A DNA stretch of 64,000 bases from Candidatus Aminicenantes bacterium (lineage in GTDB: Bacteria > Acidobacteriota > Aminicenantia > UBA2199): assembly GCA_963764745.1 (NCBI GenBank), contig CAVXTN010000005.1, positions 422,207 through 486,206 of the forward strand. Direction: 5' to 3'. Of this stretch, positions 13,531 to 30,179 are shown in pieces (position 1 is the stretch's first letter; every line of letters starts with the position of its first letter). Below the pieces are notes generated by a model. The model ran no database searches, had not been told where the DNA came from, and saw only the letters and a program-made list of their open reading frames with translations. The translations under genes were made by a program, and so were the position numbers.

Positions 13531-16500
13531 ATGAACAAGCCCGATGAATTTTTGAAGAACCCAGACACACATAATTTTCCCGGGCCGGGACGCTTTCCCG
13601 AGACCGGAAATAAAAATTGAAGCCAGACGGCTTTGCCAGGCGCTTCGGGATCCAGGGCGGCGAAGCCTTCGACCGCTGGCATGACGAAAAGCTCAGCCTG
13701 ATCACGGTGCCGAATTCTCCGCAAAATCTCGCCCGCCTCCACGATATCTTTGCCTTCCATTCCAATCTCCTGCAAAATATCACCGCTTTCCTGCCAGGCA
13801 ACTTCCAGATCGATATCCTGACGCAGCCGTTTACGGCCAGCGCGCCCGCCGTTCTGGCCGGGCAGCCGGCGGCGGCGGCGGAGAGCATTTTCGGGCAATA
13901 CCTTGCCTTCCTGGGCGCGGCCCGGGAATGGGGCATGGATTTCGTCGATTTTTCCAAATTCCAGATCCTGCCCGGGCGCGACCCTGCGTTTCGGCTGGGA
14001 CCTGGATCGCCACCCCTTCCCTTCCCCCGCCGCTTTCCTGCCCATTTTCAGCCAGAACCGCCACTTGCGCGACCTGGACGAGTGCAATTACCTGGATGTC
14101 ATAAAAAGGACGACAAAGAAGTCCCGGTCTCCGAAGCCGGCCGGCTACCTGTGCCGCGGCGACGATTTCACTTCCAATCTGCTGCATGCCCGCTCGCTGA
14201 ACGGCATGAAGGCCAATGCCGCCATCAGGATCCACACCACTTCCCCCTGGCAGAAACCGATCATCCGCAACAATCTTTTCCATGCCCTGAATGGCGAAGA
14301 ACTCCTCCTGCTGAAAATGGACTTGGAGAGCGTGCCCTTACGCGATTTTTTTTCGGACTTGTGCGGCCGGGAAAAAAGCAACAAGGAGAATCCATCCGCG
14401 CAAGTGCGGGAATTCCGCTCCTTCTTGCAGCAATCGGTTTTTCAAAAGACCGTTTTGCTGATCGACAACCTGGCGAAAAAAGAAGACATCCGGCTGCTCC
14501 GCTACCTGCTGGAAGCAGGAGACATCCCGGGGTTGACCCTCATCCTGTTCAACGACTCCGCACCCTTCGACTGTGACCTTGAATTGCGTGAAGACCCGCC
14601 GGACCAATTGCAAAAATACCTTCCCGCCTTGTTCCCCCGGCCCAGACATCCCGGCCTGAGCAAAAAGGAAAGTGAACTTTTTAAAAAGATCGCCATGATC
14701 GAAGTCCCGGTTCCCGTGGCCGTCGCCCGCTTCCTGGCCGGGCGCGACGGCGGCCCGACCATCGCCGGGCTGTTGAACAAGCAATACCTGACGGAAATCA
14801 AGAACCAGCAAACCCTGTCCCCGAATTTGCCCCGAGCCCAGGCCCGGGCAAACCGGAAGGAAAAGAAGGAATTGCTGGAGCTGCTGGCGGCCGAAACGGA
14901 TTGGGTCTACGCGAAAGTGAGCCGAATGATCGACGACGAGCAATGGGCGGCCCTGGAACAGTACCTGAAGAACATGGCGGCGGAGTCTCCGGGGCTGGTG
15001 GCACCCGGCCCGGCTGCCGAGCTGATCTTGCGCCACCTGCCGCAGATGGCTTCAGCCGGCAAGATCCTGGAATACTTCGTGGAAATCCTCATCCAGAGCG
15101 ACTGCCTGCCGCTGGCCCAAAAAGTGCTTGCCGGATATGCCGAGCCAGGACAAGGTTTTTGCCCGGCTGAAAGCCGCCCACCTGGCCATGAGGAGGAAGG
15201 AATACCCAAGGCTCGGCAAGCTGCTTTCCGGGCTGGGCCGGGTCCCGGAAGAGCTGAGGGACGAATGGCTGTACTTGAAATTCTATTATCATGAAAAAAT
15301 CTCGCAAGCCCAAAAGGCCGACGAATACGAAGGCAAGATCAAAAGCCCGTATTATCGGAATCTGTGCCTCAGCCAATTGAGCGACCGCAGCATCTACAAT
15401 CGCGATTTTGCCAAAGCCCACGCCCAATTGGCCGGAGCCCTGGCCTATTTCGCGAATCGCCGCTTCTGGCGCGAGGAGATCGAGATCCAGAGCCAGATGG
15501 CGAAATTGTGGCGGGAAAAAGGAAATTTCCAGGAAGCCGAATCGCTTTACAAGACCATCTACATTAAAAGCGAAACCGAAGGCCTGGCATTGAGGTCGGC
15601 AGCCATCGCCGTGGACCTGGGCAATTTGTACATGGAAGAGGACGATGATTTTCAAGCCGAATGCTGGTATCAAAAAGCATTGCATTTGTTCGAAAAAGAA
15701 AAGAATGCCGACGGGATCATGCTGGTGAATTCCAACCTGATCAATATTTTTTTCGCCAAGGGCAACTGGCTGGAAGCCGAGAAGCTCCTGCGCGCCGTTC
15801 TGGCGGCCAACGAAGAGAAGCAATTGCCGAATTCCTGCGCCATCGACTACCTGAACTGGGCCAACCTTGAAAATTTGCGCCTGCATGACGACAAGGCCTT
15901 GAAATTGCTCGAACATGCCACGGAAATTTTTAAAAACGCCGGCAACAGCAAAGGGCTTACCGAGTGCGCCTTTCTCAAGGGCCAGAATAGCCTGTTTCGC
16001 CCAAGGGCTCCCGGCCGCCAAGCCCGCGGAAGAAAAATGGTTCAGTGCCGATCAAAGGACCGTCTGCGGCATATTCAGGCAATTCGGCTCCTTGCCCGGC
16101 AAAGGCCGGGAGGCCGCCACGCTCAAGATGCTCGACGGCATCACATCAGAAAAAATCAGGTTCGATACGCTGCGCCTGCTGCTGACGCAGCCACCGGAAA
16201 ACGGAATGGCTGGACCGCTTCAGGGAAATCGCCTGGGAACTTTCCCGGCAGGCGAAAAATTATTATTACTACGAATTTTGGTATATGTATTTTGACCTGA
16301 GCGCGGAAGCCCTGCCCGGCGCCGGCCCGCGGCGCGACGAATTTTTTGCCATGCACGATTTTTTCCGCATGAACAAGAGAACCCTCTCGGCCAAACTCGA
16401 CCACCTGCGCCGGCGCGAGGAAGAGAGCGAAAGTCACCGCGATCTTTTTGACGACGCCCGCCTGGTCGGAAATTACAGGCAATGGCGGCTTCCCGAAGAT

Positions 16501-17810
16501 TTCTTCAACAGTTTTTTTTATGAACTCAACAAACCGGCGCGCATCGATTGGCTGGCCATGTAGATCCACGAAAAGCGGCAGCCGCTTGTTCAAATTCTCG
16601 AGTTCCGGGCTTTGCCAGGAACTTGCGGGAACAAATGCTGCAGCACACCCTGGAGGCACGCGGAAAATCAAGAACTACGACCTGGCCGAGATCAAAAGAA
16701 ATTTCAGCAGCCAGGAAAAATTTTTTTATCCGTTCGCCAATACCAAAATGATCCGCTGGCCGATCGACGAACAGCTCCTGGCCGGCCTGGTCATCGGGTT
16801 CGAGGACGGCGAATTTGTATTTCCAGGATTTTTTCGAGCGCCACAAGGAAACCTTCAAGAAATTCCAGGTGCTGTTTCAAGCATTTTCTGCAAAATGAAT
16901 TCCGTACTCCATGAAAAACTGGATTTCATCGTCGGCGCATCGGAAAAGATCAAGGAAATGAAAACCCTGATCGCCCAGGTCAGCAAGGTGGATTTTTCCC
17001 TGCTGATTACCGGCGAAAGCGGCAGCGGCAAGGAACTGGTGGCCAACGCCGTTCATTTGCTCAGCCCCAGGGCCAGCCAGCCTTTCGTTTCCGTCAATGC
17101 CGCGGCCATACCCGAGACCCTCCTGGAAGCGGAGCTTTTCGGATATAAAAAAGGGGCGTTCAGCGGCGCCGGCGAGAATCGCGTCGGCTTGCTGGAAGCG
17201 GCCGACCGCGGCACATTTTTCCTGGATGAGATCGCCGATCTGCCCCTGCTGCTGCAGGCAAAGGTCCTGCGGGTCCTGCAGGAAAAGGAAATCCGCCGCC
17301 TGGGCGAAAACAAGACCATCAAGATCGATATCCGCCTGATCTCCGCCAGCAACCAGAACCTTGAGGAATTGATCAGGAAAAACCTGTTCCGCGAAGATCT
17401 GTTTTACCGGCTCCAGGACCTGGTCATCCATATTCCGCCCTTGCGGGAAAGGCGGGAGGACATCCCGCTGCTCATCGAATATTTTTTAAGCAAATTCGGT
17501 TATCCCGCGGCAGACGCCGGACAAATTGCTGGCCATCGCCGACCTGTTCGCGCAATGACCGCTTGCCCGGCAATGTGCGCGAACTTGGAATCGAAGATCA
17601 AGAAGATGATCACCTTCAACCCCGAGCTGGAGGTTCCCGCCTGGCGCGAAGACGCAACCGGCAACCTGAAGAGCGCCCGCCAGGCCTTTGAAAGGAATTT
17701 GCTGCTGAATACCTTGAACGAACAGTCCTGGCACAGGGACAAAACCGCTGAAAAGCTGGGCATCAGCCGCATGGCCCTTTTCAAATGCTGAAAAAATATA
17801 AGATAAAAAG
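13531..17810 (+). CDS. Giant sigma-54-dependent transcriptional activator (long divergent N-terminal region, TPRs, AAA+ domain, Fis HTH); multiple frameshifts, end approximate
   Basis: RBS AAGGAGG then ATG at 13531; TPR-like ORF 15128; C-terminal ITGESGSGKELVA, ELFGYKKGAFSGA, FLDEI, FREDLFYRL and HTH (KTAEKLGISRMALF). Confidence 0.85.
13547..13621 (+). repeat. 75-bp direct repeat, copy 2 (inside the predicted 5' end of the sigma-54 activator gene)
   Basis: 63/75 identical to 13213..13287; offset 334 bp. Confidence 0.85.
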
Positions 17811-18733
17811 ATGACGCGCCTGGCTGCTGAAAAAAGCCGGCTGGTTTTTGCTTTTTCTCTGGGCGGCGGGCAGCCTGATATTTCTTACTGGTGCAGGCGG
17901 TCCCCGGCGACCCGCTGCTGTCCATCTTGGGGCAGAGCCCGCGTTCGGCGGACATCCTGCGCTTGCAGGATTCCCTGAAACTGAACCAGCCGTTGCTTTC
18001 GCGTTACGCGCGCTTCATGAAGAAGCTGTGCGTTCTGGATCTGGGAGAATCCCTGATCGACCGCAAGCCGGTTTTGGGTTCCATCCTGAAATATCCTGCC
18101 GAACACCCTGGGCCTGACCCTGGCCGCCATGCTGATATCCGTTGCCGATCGCCTTCCCGCTGGCCATCATGGCCGCTTTCAATAAAAACGGCCCCTGGGA
18201 AGCGCTGGCCATGATTTTTTCGGCCGTCGGGCCTGGCCTTGCCCGGCTTCCTTCTCGGCATCCTGCTGATCCTGGTATTTTCCGTGTCCTGGCACCTTTT
18301 CCCCATCTCCGGCAGCGGCGGTATCCGCTTCCTTGTCCTGCCGGCACTGACACTGGGAATTTCCCTGGGCGCCTTTCTGACGCGCATGGTACGCGCAGTC
18401 CTGAACAGGGAGCTGCAGCAGCCCTACGTGCTCCTGGCCAGAGCCAAGGGGCTTTCCAACGCCCAGATCTACCGGCGGCATGTTTTAAAGAATGCCCTGG
18501 CCCCCATCATCACCCTGATCGGCCTGCAACTGGGCGCCCTGTTGAGCGGAGCCATCATCGTGGAGAGCATCTTTTCCTGGCCGGGGCTCGGCACCCTCCT
18601 GATCACCGCCATCCGCCAGCGCGATTTCCCCATGATCCAGGGAACGGTCCTGTTCATGGCGGTCGCTTATCTGTTGTTGAATTTTCTGGTCGACCTGTCC
18701 TATCCGTTCCTCAACCCCGCGCATCCGCCATGA
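17810..18733 (+). CDS. Peptide/nickel ABC transporter permease (DppB/OppB-like), frameshifted
   Basis: VQAVPGDP, LDLGESL, EAA loop YVLLARAKGLS...RHVLKNAL, VESIFSWPGLG, RDFPMIQG. Confidence 0.9.
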
Positions 18734-19566
18734 TTCGGCTTCATAAGCAAAACCGGCAATTCCGCCTGGGCGTTCTGGCCTCTGGCCGGCCTGGGCCTGG
18801 CGCTGGCCGGCCTGGCCGCTTTCCAGGGGATCAGCTTGCGGCTGCATATCGACCAGCGCCTGCAATCTCCTCCCGCGGCACACTTCCTGGGCACGGATGC
18901 CTTGGGCCGCGACCTGCTTTCCTGCCTGGCGTTCGGCACTCTGGTCTCGTTGGCCATCGGCCTGGCCGCCGTCTTCATCGCCGCCGCCCTCGGCGCCGGC
19001 CTGGGCTTCCTGGCCGGCTGGCATGGCGGCCTGCTCGACATGCCTGCATCATGCGCGGCGCCGATTTCATCCTGGCCTTTCCCGGCATCCTGCTGGCCCT
19101 GGCCCTGATCGCTTTTTGGGGCCAGGGCGTCGTGCAACCTTGTTTTCGCGCTGGCAATCAGCGGCTGGGTAAGCTACGCCCGACTGGTGCGCGGCGAAGT
19201 TCTGAAGATCAAGAGCCAGGAATTCATCCTGGCCGCCCGCGGCTTCAACGCCTCCTCCTGGCAGATCGCCACCCGTCACATGCTGCCGCTGATCTTCCCC
19301 CTGCTGCTGACCCAGGCCGTTTCGGGCGTCGCGGCGGTCATCATGGCCGAATCAAGCCTGAATTTCCTCGGGCTGGGCCTGGACCCGCGGCTGCCGACCC
19401 TGGGCGGCATGATCGATGCCGGCCGCGGCCACCTGTTCGACAACCCGTCCCTGGTCATCCTCCCCGGCGTTTGCCTGATCCTGCTGGTCGCCGGCTTCCT
19501 GCTCCTGGCCGAAGGCCTGAAAATGCGGCCGGCCGGCAGCCGCTTTTGCAAAAAAAAAAGAGATAA
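18730..19566 (+). CDS. Peptide/nickel ABC transporter permease (DppC/OppC-like), frameshifted
   Basis: HFLGTDALGRDLL, QEFILAARGFNAS...RHMLP, AESSLNFLGLG, LGGMI. Confidence 0.9.
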   Translation: MIRLHKQNRQFRLGVLASGRPGPGAGRPGRFPGDQLAAAYRPAPAISSRGTLPGHGCLGPRPAFLPGVRHSGLVGHRPGRRLHRRRPRRRPGLPGRLAWRPARHACIMRGADFILAFPGILLALALIAFWGQGVVQPCFRAGNQRLGKLRPTGARRSSEDQEPGIHPGRPRLQRLLLADRHPSHAAADLPPAADPGRFGRRGGHHGRIKPEFPRAGPGPAAADPGRHDRCRPRPPVRQPVPGHPPRRLPDPAGRRLPAPGRRPENAAGRQPLLQKKKR

Positions 19567-19619
19567 GTATACAATCAAGGCCGTTCCCATCGCGACGGCA
19601 GACGACAGGGAGGTCGGAC

Positions 19620-19908
19620 ATGGAGAAAAGAAAGGAAATACGCATCAAAAAAAGGATCCTCTCCAGCCTGGAAGAAAAACCGGCCATCATCGTCGACATA
19701 TCGCAGAGCGGAATCAGAATTTCCATGAGCCGGCCTCCGAAGAACCAGGACGTCGACATCAAGCTGCAAATCGGCGGCAAGGTGATCAACTTGAAAGGCG
19801 ATGTCCGCTGGATCAACCGCATGGCTCCAACCAGGCTTCCAACAATATCGGCATCGCCATCCGCGAAGCCCCGCCCGAATACTACGACATGCTGACGGTT
19901 TCCGCTAG
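19620..19908 (+). CDS. Small stand-alone PilZ-domain protein (frameshift near 19830; end approximate)
   Basis: EKRKEIR (RxxxR-like) and DISQSG (D/NxSxxG) motifs, then GDVRW and IGI. Confidence 0.75.
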
Positions 19909-19949
19909 GCAGCGAACCTTAAAAAACGGAGCCGCTTCGGAGACGTCGG

Positions 19950-22928
19950 CTACTCTTCCTTGGCCCCGGCCAGCAATTGTTCGCCGGCAAGCGGCGGCCG
20001 CGGCCGGTTCGGGGACGATCTCGATTTCATCGTCGCGCAGGCGGCAGACCAGGTAGCGGGCGTCCTCCCACTCTTTTTCCAGCGACAGGTAGGCGATTTT
20101 TTCCAGCAGTTCCTTTTTCAGGACCCGGGTCAGGTTGCGCGCCCCGTATTCGAGGGAATAGCCCCTGGCGGCGATGTGGGCCAGCACATCATCCTTGACG
20201 ACCAGTTCCTTGCCCTGTTTTTCCAGGTCGTGGCGCACTTCCCGCAAATGGATGTCGATGATGGCCTTGATGTCGGCGTCACGCAGGTGGCGGAAAACGA
20301 TGATCTCATCGATGCGGTTGAGGAATTCCGGGGAAAAATATTTTTTCAGGGACTTGATCAGGGTGGCCCGGGAAACCTGCGTCCCCTCCTGGCTGCTCTT
20401 GTAGCCCATGTTGGCCTTGGAAAACAAGGCGGTGCCGATGTTGGAGGTCATGACGATGGTGGTTTTGGAAAAATCGATCACGTTGCCGCGGGCGTCGGTC
20501 AGGCGGCCGGCGTCGAAGACCTGCAGGAAAATATTCAACAGCTGGGCGTCGGCCTTTTCAATTTCATCCAGCAGGATGATCGAATACGGGATTTTGCCGC
20601 ACCTTGTCGGTCAGCTGGTTGGAGTCATAATAGCCCACATATCCGGGAGCCGCGCCGACAAAGCGCGAATAGGTGAATTTTTCCATGTATTCGGACATGT
20701 CGATGCGGATCAGGTAATCCTGGCTGCCGTAAAGGGCTTCGCTCAGGGCGATGGCCGTTTCGGTCTTGCCGACCCCGGTCGGGCCGATGAACATGAAGAC
20801 GCCGTCCGGCCGGTTTTTCTTGATGTCGTAGCCCAGCTTGGAGGTGATCACCGACGAAACCATCTTGGCCACCGCTTCGTCCTGGCCGACGATCCGTTTC
20901 AGGATATTGCCGCGCAACGCCGTCAGGCGGCTCTTCAAGGAAATGGAGATGTTGGTTTCCGGGAGATTGCCGATGTCGGCCAAAACCTCCAGCACATCGG
21001 ACTCCTCGATCTTCAGCGGCGCCGCCCTGGACGGAAATGTTCTTCAGCTTGACCTTGGCGATGCACCTTTCCAGGAGCATGATGGCCGAATCGGGCAGTT
21101 TCCTCTCCCGGATATCCCTTTTGGCGCTCTCGACGATGTCTTCGACGATCTGGTTGGAGACCAGCAGGTTGTCGGCTGGCGACCACCTGGCTGACCAGGT
21201 TCTTCAGAATTTTACGCGTGCCTTCCGGCGACAACTCGTTGACGATGATTTTCTGGAAATAGCCCAGCAGGGAATTGTCCTTTTCAATGGTGTTCTTGTA
21301 TTCCTCGTAGTCGGTGCTGGCGATCACCTGGATGGAATTGTCACGCAGGAAATTCTTGAGGATATTGACCAGGTCCAGCGACGTGCCCCGGGCCGCCCCG
21401 GTGGACATCATCAGGTGCATGTCTTCCAGCACCAGGATGGCGTTCTGGGATTTGAATTCCTGCAGGAGTTTCAGGACCTTTTCCTCGAATTGGCCGCGGT
21501 ATTTCGAACCGGTGAGCAGGCTGACGAAATTGATCTCCTTGATCTTCTTTTCCTTCAGCGCCGGCGGCACTTCGTCGAAAATGATCTTCTGGGCCAGCAG
21601 GCGGATCAGGGTCGATTTGCCCACCCCGCGTTCGCCGATCAGCAGCAGGTTCCTTTTCGAATTGGAGATGAGGATCTCGATCATCTGGCGGAGTTCCTTG
21701 CCGCGGCCGATGATCCTCTCCTCGTTCTGGATCACGGTTTCGGTGATATCGAAAAAAGCGTCGTTTTTCTGGGCGTCGGGCTTGCTCTTGCTCTTGTCGA
21801 TGCTTTCCCGCAGCTTTTTGATCTTGTCGCCCAAGCTTTTGCTCTGGGCGATCAGCAGCGCCTTTTCATAAAAATTCAGGGCCAGTTCGATGTTTTCTTC
21901 CCTGGCATAGACGTCGCCCATCATTTCGTGCCCTTCGGCGTAAAAGGGATAAAAAAGCAGGAATTTCTGCAGCAGGCGCTTCATTTCCAGGGCGCGGTTC
22001 AAATTGGCCAGGTTGCGTGATCTGCAAGAGATAGATCAGGGGCATGTTGAAATCTTCGAAAGCGATCTCCTCCAGCTGCAGCAGACTTTCCGTGAACAAT
22101 CTTCAGCTGCTGGTTGCGGTAGGCCGCCTCCACTTCGCGCCATTTGCTCCAAGAATCCGCCCTCGCTCCTTCGGCAATTGCGGCTCGGATGCCGCTCCAG
22201 GTCGGCAAAGCAAAAATTGGCCAGGTAGAATTCGCCGATTTTCTGCCAGACGCTCTTCCGCGTTCACGACGATCTCCTCGCCGCTGGTCGAGATTGCCGA
22301 AGATCACCTCGCTCTGCCGCGGGTCGCGACAGAAACAAGACCCGCTCGTTCTGAACGATCACAAAGGGAAAAAGGCTGAAATTCATGGTGGCATTGCCGT
22401 AGATCAGCTCATCATGCAGCGCGTTCCATGGGGACCGAAAAGGTTTTTTGGCGTCACCCTTTTGTTGACGTCACCGCGCCGCTGATCTTCTGGTCGAAAA
22501 GCTTGAACAGGTTTTCGATCCAGAATTTGTAATCGGCAAAAAGGTTCTTTTTTTCCTTGTCTTCGGCCTGCAGGCGGCCGTTTTTAAAGTAGTCGCTCAG
22601 GTTTTCCAGTATGAACACCAGCGTCTGCCTCTCGGTCTTGCTCATGCTCAAGACCTGGGTGTTGAATGTCTGCAAATAGGCGATGATGTTCTCCAGGACC
22701 TGCAGAATATCGTTGTCGAAAAAACGTTTTCCCGGCCGGGAGTTGGAAATTCTTTTTGCGGGCCAGGTTTTCGGCCTTGAACAGGGCGTCCAGGATATGG
22801 ACGATATAAAATATCAGGCGGTCCGAATTTTCCTTGTTGAATTCACGTTTCTCAAATTTGAAATCGGGCAGAAAAATGGCCAGAAACATGCCCATTCTTC
22901 CAAATTGGCCAAAATGTGGGTCCATCAT
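19950..22928 (-). CDS. Atypical ClpA/B/C-family AAA+ ATPase with long N-terminal domain including a TPR; heavily frameshifted, possibly two genes split near 22454
   Basis: NBD1: IIGRGKELRQMIEIL...GERGVGKS...GSKYRGQFEEKV. NBD2: FIGPTGVGKTE, RIDMSEYME, GAAPGYVGY, LLDEIEKA, DAGRLTD, TSNIG, FSPEFLNRID, YGARNL. The upstream reading 22928..22000 appears continuous once indels are allowed. Confidence 0.85.
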
Positions 22929-22956
22929 GCGCTCCGCTTGTTTTCGCCTGACATTG

Positions 22957-23022
22957 ATTATATTGACAATATTCCGCAAAAGTCAATTTGAAATTGCTTT
23001 TTCGGTCCGGGTTTGCTATACT
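22957..23022. promoter_or_regulatory. Back-to-back divergent sigma-70-type promoters for the Clp ATPase (-) and the kinase (+)
   Basis: Minus strand TTGACT(22986-22981)-N18-TATAAT(22962-22957); plus strand TTGCTT(22994-22999)-N17-TATACT(23017-23022). Confidence 0.55.
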
Positions 23023-23035
23023 TTTTCCTGGAAAC

Positions 23036-25383
23036 ATGGATGAATTACTGAGCAATCCTCTGGTCAAATTGGCCATCATCGCGGCCGTGATGGCATTGAT
23101 CCTGAAGATCGTCTACCAGATCCTGAAGACGGCCAAGGTGTCTGCCTTTCAGAACCGGTCGTTTTTCGAGGCGTTCTTTTACCTGCTGGCCAAAAAGGCC
23201 TACATGGACCGCGACGCCAAGAGGGCCCGCAAGCAGAACATGTTCCTCAAGTCCGGAAAAATATACGAAGAGATCGGCGAATTTAAAAAAGCCCTGCAGG
23301 TCTACGAGGAAGGCCAGGAATACGACGTCATGGGCGAACTGCTGGAAAAGCTGAACAAGGAAAGCGAGGCCATCGAAATATACAAAAAAAGCGGCAACAG
23401 CGACAACCTGGTCAAGCTGCTGCTCAAGCGCAAAAACATCGAAGCCGCCGGGACCGTGCTGGAGAACAACAATCGCTTCCAGGAGGCGGCCGAATTATAT
23501 TACAACTATGAACGGTATGAAAAAGCCGCCCAGATCTATGAAAAAAAAGGATTTTACAAGAAAGCGGCCTATATCTATGAAAAAGGCGGCAATTTGAAGA
23601 AAGCCGCCGTGCAATTTTGAAAAATGGTTCATCACCAGTTTCGACACCACGGTGGGCTACCAGAACTCCAAGCAGCTGGAGCAGGAATTGCTCAAAGCCG
23701 TGGAGTTGTATACCCAGCTGAACGAATTGGAAAAAGCCTACGACCTGCTGATCAAGTACGGAAAATTCGAAAAAGCCGCCGAAATCGCGGTCAAAATGAA
23801 CAAACTCCCCGAGGCCGCCAAGAATTTTGAAAAAGCCCAACTGCCGCTCAAGGCCGCCGAGATCTACGAGCAGATCGAACGAGCCCAAGATCGCCTTCCT
23901 GCTGCGCGGCGAGAACGCTTTTGCCAAGGGCAACACCCTGGAAGCGGCCGAATGGTTTTTAAAGGGCGAGGACTACACCCGGGCAGCCGAACTGTTCGAA
24001 TGGGACAAGAAATACGCCAAGGCCGCCCACTGCTATTTCATGAACCAGAATTTTCTGGGGGCCGCCGAAAACTACCTGAAGGACAACAACGAAGAAGAAG
24101 CGGCCAAGATGTTCGAAATGGGCCGGGAATGGAAGATGGCGGCCAATATCTCCATGAAATACGGAAAATTCCAGAAAGCCGGGGAACTGTACGAAAACGC
24201 CCAGGAATACTTCAAGGCCGGGGTCTCGTTCATCAAGGTGGACGATGACCGCCGCGCCCTGTCCGATTTCCAGCTCGTCCCCGTCGATTCCCCCGATTTC
24301 AACACCGCCATCACCCACATGGCGAACATCTTTTTAAAGAACCGCAAGCCGCAGCTGGTCATCGAAAAAATCGAAAAATTGCTCGGCGAAAACCAGATCG
24401 ACAAGTCCAACATCGAGTGGTTCTACGTCCTGGGGCAGGCCTACGAAAACGCGGGCAACTTCAAAAAAGCGTTTGAGATCTACCAGATGATCCTGACCGA
24501 GGACTATTCGTTCAAGGACGTGCACCAGAAGATCAAGGACGTGGAGAACCTGATCCAGAAATACAAGGAAATGGAGCTGATCAGCGAGGATTCCAGCGAA
24601 CGCTACCGCATCATCGAAAAGATCGGCGAGGGCGGCATGGGCGTGGTGTTCAAGGCCGAAGACACGGTCCTGAAGCGCGTGGTGGCCCTGAAGATCCTGA
24701 ACAAGACCCTGGTCACCGACAAGCGCAACCTGGAGCGCTTCTTTTCCGAAGCGCGCTCCACGGCATCGCTGACCCAGGCCAACATCGTCACGGTGTACGA
24801 CGTCGGCCAGATCAAGGACGACTATTTCATTTCCATGGAATATATCGAAGGGGAAAATTTCATGAACCTCATCCGCCGCAAGAAGGCTTTCTCCCCGTCG
24901 CAGATCATTTTCATCGCCATCAAGCTTTTCAAGGCCCTGGATTATTCGCACCGCAAGGGGATCATTCACCGCGACATCAAGCCGCACAACATCATGATCA
25001 CCAAGCAAAAGGAAATAAAGATCATGGATTTCGGCCTGGCCGTGATCCTGGGCGACCAGAAAAAAGGCGAAAGCGGTGTCATCACCGGCACGCCCTATTA
25101 CATGTCCCCGGAACAGATCCAGGGCATCCCGGTCGATCACCGCACCGATATCTATTCGTCGGGCACCACCCTGTTCCATCTGACCACCGGCCACGTCCCC
25201 TTCAAGGGCGAAAATATTTTTTACCAGCACCTGTTCGACCCGGTGCCGCCGATCAAGAAATACCGCACCGATGTTCCCGAAAAACTGTGCTACATCATCG
25301 AAAAGTGCATGGAAAAGAAGCGCGAGCAGAGATTCCAAAGCGCCATGGAAGTATTGAACGAAATGAAAACCATCAAAATATGA
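23036..25383 (+). CDS. Hanks-type Ser/Thr protein kinase with N-terminal TM helix and long helical (TPR-like) repeat region; two frameshifts
   Basis: GEGGMGVV, VALK, HRDIKPHN, DFG, GTPYYMSPEQ, DIYS; repeats such as YEKAAQIYEKKG and FEKAAEIAVK. Confidence 0.92.
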
Positions 25384-25387
25384 GGAG

Positions 25388-26548
25388 ATGAAAATGGATT
25401 TTTCCTTAAACGAAGAACACCTGGCATTCAAGGAAGAGACCCATAAATTCGCCGAGAAGGAAATGCGGCCCAATTCCCACGAGTATGACGAAAAGAACGA
25501 ATTCCCCTTCGAGATCATGCAGAAGGCCTTCGCGGCCGGTTTTCTCACCTCGGGCATCCCGGCCGAATACAACGGCGCCGGCCTCTCGACCCTGGTCAAC
25601 ACCATCGTCTGCGAGGAACTCGCCTGGGGCTGCGCCGGCATGTACACGTCGATCATGGCCAACACCCTGGCCACCACGCCCATCGTCCTGTTCGGCAGCG
25701 AAGAGCAGAAGAAAAAATTCCTGACGCCGCTGACCGAGAAAATGTCATTCGCCTGTTTCGCCCTGACCGAGAAGGAAGCCGGCTCCGACAACTCGGCCAT
25801 CCAGACCACGGCCGTGAAGAAAGGCGACCATTACGTGATCAACGGCTCCAAGACCTTCATCACCAACGCCGGCGTCTCGCAGCTGGGCGTGGTATTCGCC
25901 TCCACCGACAAGGACCGCGGCGCCCGCGGCCTGACGGCCTTCATCGTGCCCATGGACACCCCGGGCGTCACCGTCGGCAAGCACGAGAACAAGATGGGTC
26001 ACCGGGCCTCCAACACGGCCGAGATCTTTTTCGACGAGGTCAAGGTCCCGGTTGCCAATGTCCTGAAAAGGGAAGGCATGGGATTCATCATCGCCATGAA
26101 GACCCTCGACTACGCCAGGCCCGCCGTGGGCGCGGGCGGAGTGGGAGTGGCCCGCGCCGCTTTCGAGGAAGCCCTCAAGTATTCCCAGACCAGAGTGCAG
26201 TTCGGGCGGCCCATCGCCACGTTCCAGCACAACGCCTTCAAACTGGCGGAAATGGCCACGGATATCGACGCGGCCAGGCTGATGGTCTACCGCTCGGCCT
26301 GGATGCTGGACAACGGCATGAAGGCTTCCAAGGAATCGGCCATGGCCAAGGTCATGGCCACCGACGTGGCCATGAGGGTCACGGTCGACGCCGTCCAGCT
26401 TTTCGGCGGCTACGGCTACATGAAGGAGTATCCGGTCGAAAAGATGATGCGCGATGCCAAGCTGCTGCAGATCTACGAAGGCACCAACGAGATCCAGAAG
26501 CACGTCATTTCGCTGGAACTGCTGGGATCGGTAAAAAACATCGGTTGA
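25388..26548 (+). CDS. Acyl-CoA dehydrogenase (short/branched-chain type)
   Basis: FALTEKEAGSD, NGSKTFITN, KMGHRASNTAE, RVQFGRPI, QLFGGYGY, IYEGTNEIQ. Confidence 0.95.
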   Translation: MKMDFSLNEEHLAFKEETHKFAEKEMRPNSHEYDEKNEFPFEIMQKAFAAGFLTSGIPAEYNGAGLSTLVNTIVCEELAWGCAGMYTSIMANTLATTPIVLFGSEEQKKKFLTPLTEKMSFACFALTEKEAGSDNSAIQTTAVKKGDHYVINGSKTFITNAGVSQLGVVFASTDKDRGARGLTAFIVPMDTPGVTVGKHENKMGHRASNTAEIFFDEVKVPVANVLKREGMGFIIAMKTLDYARPAVGAGGVGVARAAFEEALKYSQTRVQFGRPIATFQHNAFKLAEMATDIDAARLMVYRSAWMLDNGMKASKESAMAKVMATDVAMRVTVDAVQLFGGYGYMKEYPVEKMMRDAKLLQIYEGTNEIQKHVISLELLGSVKNIG

Positions 26549-26552
26549 AGCG

Positions 26553-27683
26553 ATGGATCGGCACTTCGACGTCATCGTCATCGGCGGCGGCATTATCGGT
26601 CTGGCCTCCGCTTACCACCTGAGCCGGCGCGGCCGCAGCGTGCTGGTGCTGGAAAAAAAGTATTCCGGCTCCGGCTCCACCGGCCGCTGTATCGGCGGCA
26701 TCCGCCAGCAATTTTCTACCCCGGGTGCGATCCGCCTGATGCAGGAGAGCGTTCGCCAGTTCCGCGCCATGCGGGAAGAATTCGGTTTTTCGGTGGAATA
26801 TTTCGAGGGCGGCTACCTGTTCCTGGCCCATGACCCGCAGCGCCTGGATACCTTCAAGGCCATCCTGCCCCTGCAGCTGCAATTGGGGCTCAAAGTCCAG
26901 ATCCTGAGCGCGGCCGAGTGCCTGAAGATCGCTCCACAGTTGAACCCGGAAGGGTTGCTGGGGGGAGTTTTTTCTCCCGAGGACGGCCAGGCCTACCCGT
27001 TCAAGGTCATGGAAGGCTATATCCAGGAGATCAAAAAGCGCGGGTCCGAAGTTCGTTTTTTCACGGAGGTGAATGAGATCGTGGTGGAACGGGGAACCGC
27101 CAAGGGCGTAAGGACCCTGACGGGAGAAACTTTCCCTGCCGACGTCATCCTGAACGCCACGGGACCCTGGGCCCAGGAAGTCGCCAGGCTCGCCGGCCTG
27201 GAGCTGCCCATCGAGCCCGAGGAACACGAGGCCTTCATCACCGACCGCGTGCCCGCCATCTTCCCCACCATGGTGGTCGACTACCGGCCGGACGGCTGCT
27301 ACTTCTACCAGCGCAGCAACGGCCAGGTGATCGGCTGCTACAGCCCGGTGCCCAACAAGCCGGGCATCCACACCGAATCTTCCCTGGAATTCCTGGTGGA
27401 AATGTCCAAGCGCACCGTGCGCCTGGTCCCCGAGCTGGCCACGGCCAGGGTCATCCGCCATTGGGGCGGCTGCTATTCCATGACCCCGGACGGCAGCCCC
27501 TTCATCGACAAAACCGAGATCAACGGCTTTTTCGTGGCCAACGGCATGTGCGGCCACGGCTTCATGTTCGCCCCGGCCATCGGCCGCTATATCAGCGAGA
27601 TCATCCTGGACGGCAGCTACCCGTTCGACTGGTCGGAATTCCGCATGGGGCGGGAGTTCTCGCGCCAGGAACTCCTGAAATAA
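26553..27683 (+). CDS. FAD-dependent oxidoreductase, DAO/sarcosine oxidase beta/dye-linked proline dehydrogenase family
   Basis: VIGGGIIG, GSTGRCIGGIRQQF, ATGPWA, YSMTPDGSPFI, GMCGHGFMFAPAIG. Confidence 0.9.
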   Translation: MDRHFDVIVIGGGIIGLASAYHLSRRGRSVLVLEKKYSGSGSTGRCIGGIRQQFSTPGAIRLMQESVRQFRAMREEFGFSVEYFEGGYLFLAHDPQRLDTFKAILPLQLQLGLKVQILSAAECLKIAPQLNPEGLLGGVFSPEDGQAYPFKVMEGYIQEIKKRGSEVRFFTEVNEIVVERGTAKGVRTLTGETFPADVILNATGPWAQEVARLAGLELPIEPEEHEAFITDRVPAIFPTMVVDYRPDGCYFYQRSNGQVIGCYSPVPNKPGIHTESSLEFLVEMSKRTVRLVPELATARVIRHWGGCYSMTPDGSPFIDKTEINGFFVANGMCGHGFMFAPAIGRYISEIILDGSYPFDWSEFRMGREFSRQELLK

Positions 27684-27687
27684 GAAC

Positions 27688-29213
27688 ATGGCGATCAAAA
27701 TCGACGGCGACAACCTGAGCCTGGAACAATTCGACCAGGTGGCCCGCGGGAAAAAGCGCGTGGAGCTGTCGCCCGCCGCCGTGGCCAAGATCAGGAACTG
27801 CCGGTCGGTCCTGGAAGGCTTCCTGCATTCCGACAAGCCCTATTACGGCATCAACACCGGTTTCGGCGCCCTGGCCCAGCGCCGCATCGAGAAAAAGGAC
27901 CTGAAGAAACTGCAGAAGAACCTGATCAAGAGCCACACCGCCGGCGTCGGCCCGAACCTGCCGGCCGATATCGTGCGCGGCATCATCCTGCTGCGGGCCA
28001 ACGTCCTGGCCAAGGGCTACAGCGGCGTGCGCCTGGAAGTGGTGCGGCTGCTGCTGGACCTGCTGAACAAGGATATCAGGCCCCTGATCCCTTCCAAGGG
28101 ATCGGTGGGCGCTTCCGGCGACCTGGCGCCGCTTTCCCACCTGGCCATGGTCCTGATCGGCGAAGGCGACGTCGTGTACCGCGACCGCGAACAGAACTCG
28201 GCCGCGGCTTTCAAGCAAGCCGGCCTGCAGCCGCTGGTGCTCCTGGAAAAGGAAGGCCTGGCCCTGATCAACGGCACGCAGGTGATGACCGCCATCGGGA
28301 TTTTCAACCTGCGCGAGGCCGAAAACCTGGCCAAAGTGGCCGATATCGCCGGCGCCATGACCTTCGAGGCCCAGCTGGGCAATCCCTCGCCTTTTTGCGA
28401 GGAGATCCAGAATGTCCGCCGCCATCCCGGCCAGATGGAGAGCGCCGGCAACATCCGGCGCTGACCAAGGACTCGCCCCTGTGGAACTCCCACCAGGGCC
28501 GGAAAAAAGTGCAGGATGCCTATTCCGTGCGCTGCATTCCCCAGGTGCACGGGGCGGCGCGCGACACCCTGAAGTACGTGCGCCGCGTCCTGGAGATCGA
28601 GACCAACTCCGCCACCGAGAATCCCCTGATCTTCCCTGACCAGAAGATCATCCTCTCCGGCGGCAATTTCCACGGCGAGCCGGTGGCTTTCGCCATGGAT
28701 TTCCTGGGCATCGCCATGACCGAACTGGGCAACATCTCCGAGCGGCGCATCGACCGCCTGATCAACCCCGCCTCCAACATGGGGCTGCCCAATTTCCTCG
28801 TGGCCGACAACGGCCTGAATTCAGGCTTCATGATCGTTCACGTCACGGCCACGGCCCTGGCTTCGGAAAACAAATCCCTGGCCCATCCGGCTTCGGTGGA
28901 CAACATCCCCACGTCGGCCAACCAGGAAGACCACGTCAGCATGGGCACCATCGGCGCCCGCCAGGCGCGCGAGATCATCGGCAACCTGACCCACATCCTG
29001 GCCATTGAATTGATGGCCGCGGCCCAGGCCCTGGATTTTTACGAACATAAAAGCTCGCCGCCGCTGGAAAACGTGAAAGCGCTGATCCGCAAGCAGGTGC
29101 CCTTTTTGCATGAAGACACGCGCATGGACGTCCATATCCGCCAGATCGTCGACCTGATCGAAAGCGGCAAGCTGATCGCCGCCGCCGAAGCAACGGGCTT
29201 GCGGCTCTCGTGA
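27688..29213 (+). CDS. hutH: Histidine ammonia-lyase (frameshift near 28455)
   Basis: YGINTGFG, LIKSH (SH specificity pair), GSVGASGDLAPL (ASG for MIO), QDAYSVRCIPQVHG, GGNFHGEP, SANQEDHVSM. Confidence 0.93.
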
Positions 29214-29467
29214 TGTTCCGCCTCCTGCTTCTGGCCGGAATTGTTTACCTGCTTTTAAAATGGCTGCGGCGGAGCGCCCAGCCGCGGGAAAAGGGGCAAA
29301 CATTCCGGCGCCGGGACACGGCCGTCGAAGAGATGATGCGGGACCCGGTTTGCGGCACCTATGTCCCGGCCAGCCAGGCCGTCACCCTGCAACGGGAAAA
29401 AGAGATCCTTTATTTCTGCAGTTCCGGCTGCCGCGACAAGTTCAAGGAAATTCCAAAAGCCAATTGA
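29210..29467 (+). CDS. YHS-domain protein with N-terminal membrane anchor
   Basis: DPVCGTYV...YFCSSGCRDKF; start overlaps the hutH stop. Confidence 0.85.
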   Translation: MMFRLLLLAGIVYLLLKWLRRSAQPREKGQTFRRRDTAVEEMMRDPVCGTYVPASQAVTLQREKEILYFCSSGCRDKFKEIPKAN

Positions 29468-30163
29468 ACCCACCAAAAACGGCAAGTTACCGCCTGCCCT
29501 TTCAATCGTTGCGTTCAGCCCGCCGGCTGCGCCCCGCCGGCCGCGGAATAAAAAGGTCAGCACGAACCCGACGACGAATCCGCCGATGTGCGCCATGTAC
29601 GCCACCCCGCCCGTGTCCGCCGTGTTGGCGATCGAACCGATGCCGCTGAAAAACTGCAGCACGATCCAGAACCCGATGGCGAGCAGCGCCGGCACCTGGA
29701 CCACTCCCTGGCCCTGCAATACCCTGACCTTTCCCTTGGGGAACAGCAAAATGTAGGCGCCGAGCACCCCGGCGATGGCCCCCGACGCGCCCAGGTTGGG
29801 CACGTTCGACTTGAGGTTGAACGCCAGCTGGGCGAACGTGGCCGCCAGACCGCAAAGCAAATAGAAGACCGCGAACTTGCCGTGCCCGAAACGGTCCTCC
29901 ACGTTGTCGCCGAAGATCCACAGGTAAAGCATGTTGCCGCCCAGGTGCACCCAGCCGGCATGCATGAACATGGCGGTGAAAAGCGTCAGGAAATCCGCGG
30001 CCGGATCGGCCAGAAAGCGCCTGGGGACGAAAGCCCATTTCCCGATGAACGCATCGCCGCCGCTCATCTCCACGAAGAAGAACAGGACGTTCAGGGCGAC
30101 CAGGGCATACGTGACCAGCGGAACGGTCCTGCGCGAGGTATCGTCATCGCCTATTGGCAGCAT
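29255..30163 (-). CDS. Rhomboid-family intramembrane serine protease (true 3' end probably near 29515)
   Basis: MLPIGDD, MFMHAGWVHLGGNMLYLWIFGDNVEDRFG, GASGAIAG (catalytic Ser), AYMAHIGGF (catalytic His). Confidence 0.92.
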   Translation of the reverse strand: MLPIGDDDTSRRTVPLVTYALVALNVLFFFVEMSGGDAFIGKWAFVPRRFLADPAADFLTLFTAMFMHAGWVHLGGNMLYLWIFGDNVEDRFGHGKFAVFYLLCGLAATFAQLAFNLKSNVPNLGASGAIAGVLGAYILLFPKGKVRVLQGQGVVQVPALLAIGFWIVLQFFSGIGSIANTADTGGVAYMAHIGGFVVGFVLTFLFRGRRGAAGGLNATIERAGGNLPFLVGSIGFWNFLELVAAAGTAEIKDLFFPLQGDGLAGRDIGAANRVPHHLFDGRVPAPECLPLFPRLGAPPQPF

Positions 30164-30179
30164 AAGATTTCCCTCCTTG

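What the first reader, a model, noticed from the sequence alone, without database searches (positions are those of the whole stretch)
19620..25383. Candidate phospho-regulated proteolysis module: atypical Clp head-to-head with a membrane TPR-like Ser/Thr kinase, plus a PilZ protein
The Clp and kinase start codons are only about 107 bp apart, with back-to-back sigma-70-like promoters whose -35 boxes are 7 bp apart (seen), implying coupled or mutually exclusive transcription. Both proteins carry helical-repeat interaction domains, and a stand-alone c-di-GMP-receptor-type PilZ gene converges on the Clp. Kinase-directed Clp activity is established for McsB/ClpC (arginine kinase). A Hanks-kinase/TPR-Clp pairing would be a different system. 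This is my best candidate for an undescribed system in the window (inference).
Basis: inference. Interest (0 to 1): 0.68.

Follow-up and report, generated by a model that had tools for sequence, protein, structure and literature searches.

The report
Clp-like unfoldase beside membrane kinase
An uncultured Aminicenantes bacterium carries a lineage-specific Clp-type protein unfoldase back-to-back with a membrane-anchored protein kinase; the pairing is inherited within one bacterial family and may be functional, but nothing yet shows that the kinase controls proteolysis, and in this assembly the genes are broken by sequencing-type errors.

Summary
A PilZ gene (19620-~19909, +) converges on a Clp/Hsp100-like gene (19950-22928, -). 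That gene starts 107 bp from a TM-solenoid Hanks kinase (23036-25383, +), and the two -35 boxes are 7 bp apart. In this assembly all three genes are interrupted by single-base insertions (about 15 in the Clp-like gene, 2 in the kinase, 1 in PilZ). Congeners have intact genes, and pN/pS is 0.03-0.15 in every kinase frame segment, so these are almost certainly assembly errors.

In 141 Aminicenantia genomes the divergent pair is adjacent in 42 of 68 genomes that have both genes. All 42 belong to one family (f1). Three sister families have both genes, never on the same contig (0/16). Twelve genomes keep the kinase without the Clp-like gene. Each gene has its own conserved promoter, which survives when the genes are unlinked. 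PilZ is not a conserved partner.

The Clp-like gene's more consistent neighbour in f1 is a receiver-LpxC fusion, which lies elsewhere in this genus. The unfoldase has a new N-domain ending in three TPRs, a Walker-B "ED" in ring 1 and a ClpC-like ClpP loop.

Verdict: a real, lineage-specific neighbourhood. The phospho-proteolysis module is unproven.

The parts
19620..19909 (+). Single-domain PilZ gene (about 97 aa in congeners). RxxxR at 19629-19643 and DxSxxG at 19695-19712. Frame change near 19830 in this assembly. Converges on the Clp-like gene.
19950..22928 (-). Lineage-specific class-I Clp/Hsp100 (ClpA-architecture) unfoldase gene, about 990 aa when intact. Here it is split over at least 6 frame segments by about 15 indels.
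21740..22928 (-). N-terminal domain of about 390 aa that replaces Clp_N. It comprises a helical bundle, a small beta subdomain and three TPRs (TPR motif YPFYAEGHEMMGDVY at 21907-21951).
   Evidence: AF2 model with pLDDT 80. Foldseek against PDB matches only the TPR part. Only about 20 representative clusters in 1.84 billion proteins cover the non-TPR part.
21415..21636 (-). D1 ring motifs: Walker A GERGVGKS (21613-21636), pore loop GSKYRGQFE (21484-21510), Walker B LVLEDMH with ED in place of DE (21415-21435).
20131..20785 (-). D2 ring motifs: Walker A GPTGVGKT (20762-20785), pore loop PGYVGY (20630-20647), Walker B LLDEIEKA (20551-20574), MGY tripeptide at the ClpC VGF/AGF ClpP-docking position (within 20395-20412), sensor-2 GARNL (20131-20145).
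22957..22986 (-). Clp-like promoter: -35 TTGACT (22986-22981), 18-nt spacer, -10 TATAAT (22962-22957). A GGAG Shine-Dalgarno sequence precedes the ATG at 22928.
   Evidence: Invariant in 17 sequences covering 11 labelled f1 genera.
22994..23022 (+). Kinase promoter: -35 TTGCTT (22994-22999), 17-nt spacer, extended -10 TGcTATACT (23014-23022). Only 13 nt separate the -10 from the ATG at 23036, so the mRNA is probably leaderless or nearly so.
   Evidence: Conserved and retained in unlinked genomes.
22984..22996 (.). Palindrome CAATTTGAAATTG spanning both -35 boxes. It is not conserved in genera where the promoters lie further apart, so it is probably a by-product of the back-to-back -35 boxes and not an operator.
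23036..25383 (+). Hanks-type Ser/Thr kinase gene (about 785 aa when intact). N-terminal TM anchor at 23060-23125, a cytoplasmic alpha-solenoid of about 480 aa, and a C-terminal kinase domain (GEGGMG 24625-24642, VVALK 24679-24693, HRDIKPHN 24967-24990, DFG 25027-25035, SPE 25105-25113). Two +1 insertions at about 23611 and 23874.
25388..29213 (+). Genes tightly following the kinase, probably in the same operon: acyl-CoA dehydrogenase (25388/25394-26548), DAO-type FAD oxidoreductase (26553-27683), and an aromatic amino-acid ammonia-lyase (27688-29213, itself split by a frameshift).
   Evidence: Kinase-ACAD adjacency is also seen.

Best explanation
The region holds three separately transcribed genes of an Aminicenantia MAG.

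1. A PilZ c-di-GMP receptor. It is a genus-level neighbour only.

2. A lineage-specific two-ring Clp/Hsp100 unfoldase with ClpA architecture (no M-domain).
- The Clp_N domain is replaced by a new domain of about 390 aa: a helical bundle, a small beta subdomain and three TPRs.
- Ring 1 carries Walker-B ED in place of DE, so it probably binds ATP but hydrolyses it poorly (inferred).
- Ring 2 and both pore loops are canonical.
- An [M/L]GY tripeptide sits at the ClpC VGF/AGF position. The protein therefore most likely docks on the genome's single ClpP as a specialised, D2-driven substrate selector (inferred).

3. A Hanks Ser/Thr kinase. It is tethered to the membrane by one N-terminal helix, has a cytoplasmic TPR-like solenoid of about 480 aa, and heads an operon with acyl-CoA dehydrogenase, DAO and ammonia-lyase genes.

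Genes 2 and 3 are transcribed divergently from two autonomous sigma-70-type promoters placed back to back. This arrangement is ancestral to one family (f1), where the reconstructed cluster is ACAD<-kinase <-> Clp-like->REC-LpxC. It is largely retained there. The window's genus has moved REC-LpxC elsewhere.

The kinase-Clp adjacency is best read as inherited family-level synteny that may reflect a shared physiological context at the membrane or envelope. It is not a demonstrated kinase-directed protease.

The frame interruptions in this window are assembly (consensus insertion) errors, not biology.
For: Domains and motifs.

No Clp_N and no M-domain: ClpA is the best model at 500.9 bits against a cut-off of 993, and it aligns in one stretch.

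N-domain model, and only TPR matches in PDB. The family is rare.

One clpP per genome.

Kinase solenoid model with pLDDT 88 and TPR/IFT-A-type matches.

Linkage statistics.
- Adjacent in 23 of 24 g1 genomes and 19 of 28 genomes of other f1 genera.
- 0 of 16 in families f2, f4 and f6.
- Twelve genomes have the kinase only.

Contexts.

Autonomous conserved promoters.

Clp-like->REC-LpxC adjacency in 21 of 29 non-g1 f1 genomes, and kinase<->REC-LpxC in 5 Clp-less genomes.

Errors, not pseudogenes:
- Intact orthologues in all congeners.
- pN/pS of 0.03-0.15 in each kinase frame segment.
- Neighbouring genes and distant genes (sigma-54 activator, ammonia-lyase, REC-LpxC; clpP match truncated) are also disrupted.
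- CheckM completeness is 71.65% for a 3.5-Mb, 15-contig genome, against 93-97% for comparable congeners.
Against: Conservation of a divergent pair across at least 11 genera, while the outer flanks change, is more than background synteny usually gives. One partner is a regulator-type protein.

The Clp-like gene is almost never found without the kinase (1 of 69 genomes, and that MAG is 80% complete).

The cluster, the REC-LpxC fusion and this form of the N-domain all appear together in family f1.

These points leave real room for a functional link.

ClpP docking, a weak D1 and the operon structure are inferences only.
Confidence: 0.55

Rival explanations
1. Kinase-directed proteolysis module. 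The membrane-anchored kinase phosphorylates either the unfoldase's N-domain or a client, most plausibly the receiver-LpxC fusion. This gates unfolding and ClpP degradation, giving a Hanks-kinase counterpart of McsB/ClpC or of PknB-RseA-ClpC1P2. The TM-TPR kinase would play a LapB-like scaffolding role in controlling lipid A synthesis.
For: The divergent pair is kept in 42 of 52 f1 genomes that have both genes (42 of the 49 that can be decided).

Clp-like->REC-LpxC is same-strand with short gaps in 21 of 29 genomes. Kinase<->REC-LpxC stays together after the Clp-like gene is lost.

Phyletic nesting: the Clp-like gene occurs without the kinase only once.

Both proteins have repeat scaffolds.

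There is a precedent for Ser/Thr-kinase-dependent Clp proteolysis: PknB phosphorylates RseA, which ClpC1P2 then degrades (PMC10027907).
Against: The genes are unlinked in families f2, f4 and f6 (0 of 16) and in 7 f1 genomes.

An intact kinase is retained in 12 genomes that lack the Clp-like gene.

The kinase is translationally close to catabolic genes, not to proteolysis genes.

The receiver of REC-LpxC has a canonical Asp acceptor, which points to a histidine kinase.

In the window's own genus REC-LpxC lies on another contig.

No FHA or other phospho-binding fold was found in the N-domain.

The phyletic pattern is confounded by phylogeny.
Confidence: 0.17
2. Co-regulated but mechanistically independent. 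The two back-to-back promoters share upstream DNA, so divergent transcription couples them through supercoiling or a common regulator. The two products would then be made together, for example in an envelope or membrane stress programme, without the kinase acting on the unfoldase.
For: The intergenic core is invariant across genera (AAAAAkCAAT...TTGACA).

The -35 boxes are 7 bp apart in this genus, with a palindrome across them.

Predicted transcription start sites are about 79 bp apart.
Against: The spacing between the promoters varies by up to about 40 bp, and the palindrome is lost in several genera.

Each promoter persists unchanged when the genes are unlinked.

No regulator gene is conserved nearby.
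Confidence: 0.15
3. The genes are genuine pseudogenes in this organism: a decaying locus, not assembly error.
For: There are multiple frame interruptions in three adjacent genes. Most insertions are not in homopolymers.
Against: pN/pS is 0.03-0.15 in each frame segment.

There is no excess of substitutions or in-frame stops.

The same kind of interruption hits unrelated genes here and on other contigs, including essential lpxC (frame-split) and clpP (match truncated at profile position 152 of 182).

CheckM completeness is low despite high contiguity.

All congeners have intact genes.
Confidence: 0.05

Closest known systems
ClpA / ClpC (class-I Clp/Hsp100 unfoldases, ClpP partners)
   Same: Two AAA+ rings, both pore loops (KYRG, GYVG), canonical D2 Walker A and B, and a ClpB_D2-small domain. 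A hydrophobic-Gly-aromatic tripeptide sits exactly where ClpC has VGF/AGF. D1 and D2 are contiguous with no M-domain, as in ClpA.
   Different: No Clp_N domain; a new domain of about 390 aa ending in three TPRs takes its place. D1 Walker B is ED in all 90 family members aligned. Scores fall far below every NCBIfam equivalog cut-off (ClpA 500.9 against 993). The family is restricted to Aminicenantia.
McsB/McsA-ClpC phospho-arginine degradation system (Bacillus)
   Same: The concept only: a kinase encoded near a Clp ATPase that could mark proteins for ClpP degradation.
   Different: McsB is a guanidino (arginine) kinase, whereas this is a Hanks Ser/Thr kinase (PF00069). The pArg receptor is the Clp_N domain, which is absent here. 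The mcsB genes are co-transcribed with clpC, whereas these genes are divergent and separable.
PknB-RseA-ClpC1P2 (Mycobacterium tuberculosis)
   Same: Phosphorylation of a substrate by a Hanks kinase triggers Clp-dependent degradation (PMC10027907).
   Different: That system uses canonical ClpC1 and a PASTA kinase, and the genes are not linked. Here no substrate is known and nothing has been tested.
LapB(YciM)/FtsH control of LpxC (E. coli; from established knowledge)
   Same: A protein with an N-terminal membrane anchor and cytoplasmic TPRs sits next to an AAA+ machine. In most f1 genera it also sits next to lpxC.
   Different: The AAA+ partner is Clp-type, not FtsH. The TPR protein carries a kinase domain in place of a rubredoxin domain. 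LpxC is fused to a receiver domain. In this window's genus lpxC is unlinked.
PknG-type TPR-containing bacterial Ser/Thr kinases
   Same: A Hanks kinase fused to a TPR-like repeat scaffold in the cytoplasm.
   Different: The domain order is reversed: TM anchor, then about 14 short helical hairpins, then the kinase at the C-terminus. There is no rubredoxin domain and no PASTA or extracellular sensor.

Membership tests
Clp/Hsp100 class I (ClpA/ClpC type) | Two AAA+ modules with Walker A and Walker B (hhhhDE) in both rings | tested here: inconclusive
   D1 Walker A is present, but D1 Walker B reads hhhhED in 90 of 90 members. D2 Walker A and B are canonical.
Clp/Hsp100 class I (ClpA/ClpC type) | N-terminal Clp_N (double Clp repeat) domain | tested here: not met
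   No Clp_N hit in Pfam for the intact orthologue. The N-terminal 390 aa model as a different fold plus TPRs.
Clp/Hsp100 class I (ClpA/ClpC type) | Pore loops and the C-terminal D2-small domain | tested here: met
   GSKYRGQFE and APGYVGY are invariant. PF10431 scores 54.9 bits.
Clp/Hsp100 class I (ClpA/ClpC type) | ClpP-docking [LIV]-G-[FL] loop | tested here: inconclusive
   [M/L]GY aligns with AGF/VGF of S. aureus and B. subtilis ClpC. It is IGF in a family-f6 orthologue. Binding was not tested. One clpP is present per genome.
Clp/Hsp100 class I (ClpA/ClpC type) | Score above the NCBIfam equivalog cut-off (ClpA, ClpB, ClpV, ClpK, ClpG) | tested here: not met
   The best is ClpA at 500.9 bits against a cut-off of 993.15.
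McsB/ClpC-type kinase-directed Clp system | Guanidino-kinase McsB and a pArg-binding Clp_N domain | tested here: not met
   The kinase is PF00069 Pkinase. Clp_N is absent.
Hanks-type Ser/Thr kinase | Pkinase domain with Gly-loop, VAxK Lys, HRD, DFG and SPE motifs | tested here: met
   193.6 bits against a cut-off of 31.7. All motifs were located.
PknB/Stk1 PASTA kinases | Extracellular PASTA repeats after a central TM helix | tested here: not met
   318.6 bits against a cut-off of 450, and only the kinase domain aligns. The TM helix is N-terminal and the rest of the protein is cytoplasmic solenoid.
PilZ c-di-GMP receptors | PilZ domain with RxxxR and D/NxSxxG motifs | tested here: met
   PF07238 scores 32.3 bits against a cut-off of 22.5. 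RKEIR and DISQSG are present. Binding was not tested.
Conserved functional gene module (kinase + Clp-like + PilZ) | Linkage kept across the taxa that have the genes | tested here: inconclusive
   The kinase-Clp pair is linked in 42 of 68 genomes, all in family f1, and in 0 of 16 genomes of three other families. PilZ is not conserved as a neighbour.
Conserved functional gene module (kinase + Clp-like + PilZ) | Physical interaction or phosphotransfer between the components | not testable with these tools
   No multimer prediction or experiment was available.

The most novel reading that the evidence does not exclude
In Aminicenantia family f1, a membrane-anchored TPR-solenoid Hanks kinase and a Clp_N-less ClpA-like unfoldase with a weak first ring form a membrane-proximal regulated-proteolysis device. 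The unfoldase would work with ClpP. The likely client is the receiver-fused LpxC encoded just downstream of the unfoldase in most genera. This would be a Clp-based, phosphorylation-gated analogue of the LapB/FtsH control of lipid A synthesis. In the window's genus the same parts persist but lpxC is unlinked.
Probability: 0.15. Interest if true: 0.75.

Novelty: new variant of a known kind. Interest (0 to 1): 0.4.

Why it matters
If the kinase and the unfoldase do work together, this would be the first genetically linked Hanks-kinase/Clp system. It might also be a new way of controlling LpxC, the committed step of outer-membrane lipid A synthesis, in a widespread uncultured lineage.

Without that link, the unfoldase still stands as a clear new Clp/Hsp100 variant. 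It has a new substrate-selecting N-domain, a Walker-B ED first ring and a ClpC-like ClpP loop. Its family is very small (about 20 clusters in 1.84 billion representatives).

On the practical side, this report shows that the genome carries many insertion-type consensus errors. Gene calls and "pseudogenes" from it should not be trusted without read support.

Tried and rejected
- Palindrome CAATTTNAAATTG as a shared operator: rejected. It is exact in only some genera, and the two -35 boxes are separated by up to about 50 bp in others.
- PilZ as part of the module: rejected, because the neighbour on that side varies.
- Known RNA elements in the region: none in Rfam.
- N-domain as a known phospho-binding or adaptor fold: Foldseek against PDB gives no hit at E <= 0.001, and only TPR matches at E of about 2e-3 or weaker.
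- A consistent alternative partner for the Clp-like gene outside f1: none. It is SppA plus a membrane protein in f4, DUF1015 (with or without hslVU) in f2, and unrelated genes in f6.
- Literature search for Hanks-kinase/Clp modules or Aminicenantes Clp work: it found only the unlinked PknB-RseA-ClpC1P2 precedent.
- A genome-wide frameshift census was not attempted, because no protein database is available in the Python box.

Full report
**What is in the sequence**

Six-frame reading of 19800-23000 shows no long minus-strand ORF. It shows a Clp/Hsp100-like coding sequence that hops between frames. Pfam on the pieces gives the following:
- TPR plus AAA for 21013-22002.
- AAA_2 for 20564-20995.
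- AAA_2 plus ClpB_D2-small for 19882-20538.

The plus-strand kinase is likewise split into three frames (22988-23620, 23652-24248, 23827-25383). Only the last piece carries the Pkinase domain, at 193.6 bits.

The ORF at 19620-19895 is a PilZ domain. Its RKEIR and DISQSG motifs are intact.

The start codons are at 22928 (-) and 23036 (+), 107 bp apart.

The promoter scan found TTGACT-18-TATAAT at 22986..22957, an 11 of 12 match and the best site in the region. On the plus strand I read TTGCTT (22994-22999), a 17-nt spacer and TGcTATACT (23014-23022). That is a weak -35 with an extended -10, lying 13 nt before the ATG.

**The frame breaks are almost certainly assembly errors**

The window is G000:C5. 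The genome is 3.5 Mb in 15 contigs yet only 71.65% complete by CheckM. Congeners of similar size and contiguity score 93-97%.

Complete orthologues in the congeners read as single open frames: a kinase of about 785-835 aa and a Clp-like protein of about 990-1047 aa.

DNA alignment with the close congener G022 gives these counts:
- Two single-base insertions in the kinase, at about 23611 and 23874.
- About 11 indel events in the N-terminal half of the Clp-like gene.
- Four +1 insertions in its C-terminal half.

Nearly all are insertions, and most lie outside homopolymers. One search also places the true stop codon at 19950-19952.

Each of the three kinase frame segments, read in its own frame, has pN/pS of 0.03-0.15 against G022. 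The gene has therefore evolved as an intact coding sequence.

The same damage affects other genes:
- PilZ, near 19830.
- The upstream sigma-54 activator, with at least 4 frame changes over 13638-17782.
- The ammonia-lyase at 27688-29213.
- REC-LpxC on contig C12, where the match comes in two overlapping pieces and the ORFs are split.
- clpP on contig C12, where the match ends at profile position 152 of 182, a likely but unconfirmed break.

**The proteins, read from intact orthologues**

*The Clp-like protein (P0001, 995 aa, from congener G011)*
- It matches ClpA best, in a single stretch, at 500.9 bits against a cut-off of 993. It has no Clp_N domain and no M-domain.
- In 90 full-length family members, D1 Walker A, both pore loops and the D2 Walker A and B motifs are conserved.
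- D1 Walker B is hhhhED in every member. It is DD in families f4 and f6.
- An [M/L]GY tripeptide aligns with the AGF/VGF ClpP-docking loop of ClpC. It is IGF in one f6 orthologue.
- Most genomes searched (37 of 41) show a single clpP; none shows a second intact copy.
- The N-terminal 390 aa model with pLDDT 80 as a helical bundle (residues 1-145), a small beta subdomain (149-218), and helices ending in three TPRs.
- Foldseek against PDB matches only the TPRs.
- A profile search of 1.84 billion representatives finds only about 20 clusters that cover the non-TPR part.
- Word-based search finds 98 proteins, and the named ones come from "Candidatus Aminicenantes" or Acidobacteriota MAGs.

*The kinase (P0002, 785 aa)*
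- It has one N-terminal TM helix.
- About 30 ten-residue helices follow, forming a regular alpha-solenoid (pLDDT 88). Its best structural matches are IFT-A, SPINDLY/OGT and APC/C TPR proteins.
- A complete Hanks kinase domain sits at the C-terminus.
- Because the kinase domain must be cytoplasmic, the solenoid is cytoplasmic too.

**Comparative test of the "module"**

I searched 141 Aminicenantia genomes. The kinase orthologue occurs in 80 genomes and the Clp-like gene in 69. Both occur in 68.

| Group | Genomes with both genes | Adjacent and divergent | Not adjacent | Undecidable (contig ends) |
|---|---|---|---|---|
| Window's genus g1 | 24 | 23 | 0 | 1 |
| Other f1 genera | 28 | 19 | 7 | 2 |
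| Families f2, f4, f6 | 16 | 0 (never on the same contig) | 16 | 0 |

- The adjacent f1 genera outside g1 are g13, g14, g15, g18, g21, g23, g24 (in part), g25, g27 and g28.
- The 7 non-adjacent f1 genomes come from g16, g17, g19 and part of g24.
- In f2, f4 and f6 the local contexts are unrelated to the pair.
- Twelve genomes have the kinase only: 7 in f1, plus families f5 and f9 and one f6 genome.
- Only one genome, an 80%-complete MAG, has the Clp-like gene only.

In three independent metagenomic contexts the kinase-ACAD and kinase<->Clp junctions persist, while the 3' flank of the Clp-like gene is REC-LpxC, UbiA or PilZ.

**Promoters**

An alignment of 17 intergenic regions, covering 11 labelled f1 genera plus three contexts without a genus label, has mean column identity of 31%. 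Within it:
- TTGACA-17/18-TATAAT is invariant on the Clp side.
- TTGATT/TTGCTT-17-TGnTATACT is invariant on the kinase side and always lies 12-14 nt before the ATG. The kinase mRNA is therefore probably leaderless.
- The distance between the two -35 boxes ranges from 7 to about 50 bp. The palindrome seen in this window (22984-22996) is therefore not a conserved operator.

In genomes where the genes are unlinked, the kinase keeps its own promoter in both genomes examined (G059 and G105). The Clp-like gene keeps its promoter in G105, but in G059 no such promoter is visible upstream of it.

These are therefore two autonomous promoters placed back to back. It is not an overlapping or mutually exclusive design.

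**A stronger association than the one proposed**

Earlier notes from this scan gave me a lead, and I tested it. The full-length receiver-LpxC fusion exists only in family f1. Other families have plain LpxC.
- It lies immediately downstream of the Clp-like gene, on the same strand with gaps of about 10-140 bp, in 21 of 29 non-g1 f1 genomes. This includes genera where the kinase is unlinked.
- In 5 of the 7 f1 genomes that lack the Clp-like gene, the kinase is divergent directly from REC-LpxC. That pattern indicates a clean deletion of the Clp-like gene.
- The receiver has canonical acceptor residues, and the LpxC motifs are present.

The ancestral f1 cluster was therefore ACAD<-kinase <-> Clp-like->REC-LpxC. 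In genus g1 REC-LpxC is never on the Clp contig. In G000 it is at C12:27545-28868.

**Interpretation**

Shown by the results:
- The gene content, the domains and the motifs.
- The promoter conservation.
- The linkage statistics.
- The error nature of the frameshifts (strongly supported).

Inferred only:
- ClpP docking.
- A hydrolysis-poor D1 ring.
- A leaderless kinase mRNA.
- Operon structures.

The kinase-Clp adjacency is family-level. It is separable and is not required by either gene. I therefore rate plain inherited neighbourhood, with independent biochemical roles, as most likely (about 0.55).

Conservation of the core while the flanks change, the near-complete nesting of the Clp-like gene within kinase-bearing genomes, and the REC-LpxC link keep two alternatives open. 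One is a functional kinase/unfoldase (and LpxC) device, at about 0.15-0.2. The other is simple co-regulation, at about 0.15.

The only literature precedent I found for Ser/Thr-kinase-triggered Clp proteolysis is PknB-RseA-ClpC1P2 (PMC10027907). It uses unlinked canonical components.

**Verdict**

This is a real, lineage-specific gene neighbourhood containing a genuinely new Clp/Hsp100 variant. The "phospho-regulated proteolysis module with PilZ" is not established. PilZ should be dropped from it. In this assembly the genes are corrupted by consensus errors.

Noticed in passing
window 13600-29300, and G000 contig C12 (27545-28868; 554696-555142): There is a patch of insertion-type frameshifts. 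The sigma-54 activator has at least 4 frame changes. DppB, PilZ, the Clp-like gene, the kinase and the ammonia-lyase (27688-29213) are also split. REC-LpxC elsewhere in the genome is split, and the clpP match is truncated. Genome completeness is only 71.65% in 15 contigs. This is likely an under-polished long-read MAG.
   Followed up: partly
L041 9027-10343; L064 2534-3871; G000:C12:27545-28868: A receiver(REC)-LpxC fusion is specific to family f1. It has a canonical Asp acceptor and intact LpxC motifs. In 21 of 29 non-g1 f1 genomes it lies directly downstream of the Clp-like gene. In Clp-less genomes it is divergent from the kinase. In the window's genus it is unlinked.
   Followed up: yes
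window 13638-17782 (+): A giant sigma-54 enhancer-binding protein of about 1390 aa, with a long N-terminal region, MalT-like TPRs, Sigma54_activat and HTH_8. It lies upstream of two DppB/DppC-type permease genes (17831-19558). No ATPase or binding-protein gene was seen among the ORFs between the activator and PilZ.
   Followed up: partly
window 23014-23036, and alignment A4: The -10 of the kinase promoter lies only 12-14 nt before the ATG in all genera, with no Shine-Dalgarno sequence. This suggests a conserved leaderless or near-leaderless kinase mRNA.
   Followed up: partly
L036 4926-9847 (G030, family f2); L037 5392-9681 (G035): In family f2 the Clp-like orthologue directly follows a DUF1015 gene. 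In G030 it is followed by hslV-hslU, making a small proteolysis cluster.
   Followed up: no
L031 4117-9801 (G027, family f4): In family f4 the Clp-like orthologue is the third gene of a same-strand run: SppA (peptidase S49), then a polytopic membrane protein, then the Clp-like gene.
   Followed up: no
window 29255-30265 (-): A rhomboid-family intramembrane protease gene converges on the end of the kinase operon.
   Followed up: no
window 22984-22996: A perfect palindrome CAATTTGAAATTG spans both -35 boxes. It occurs once in the window (0.42 matches with up to 1 mismatch are expected by chance) but is not conserved in all genera.
   Followed up: yes
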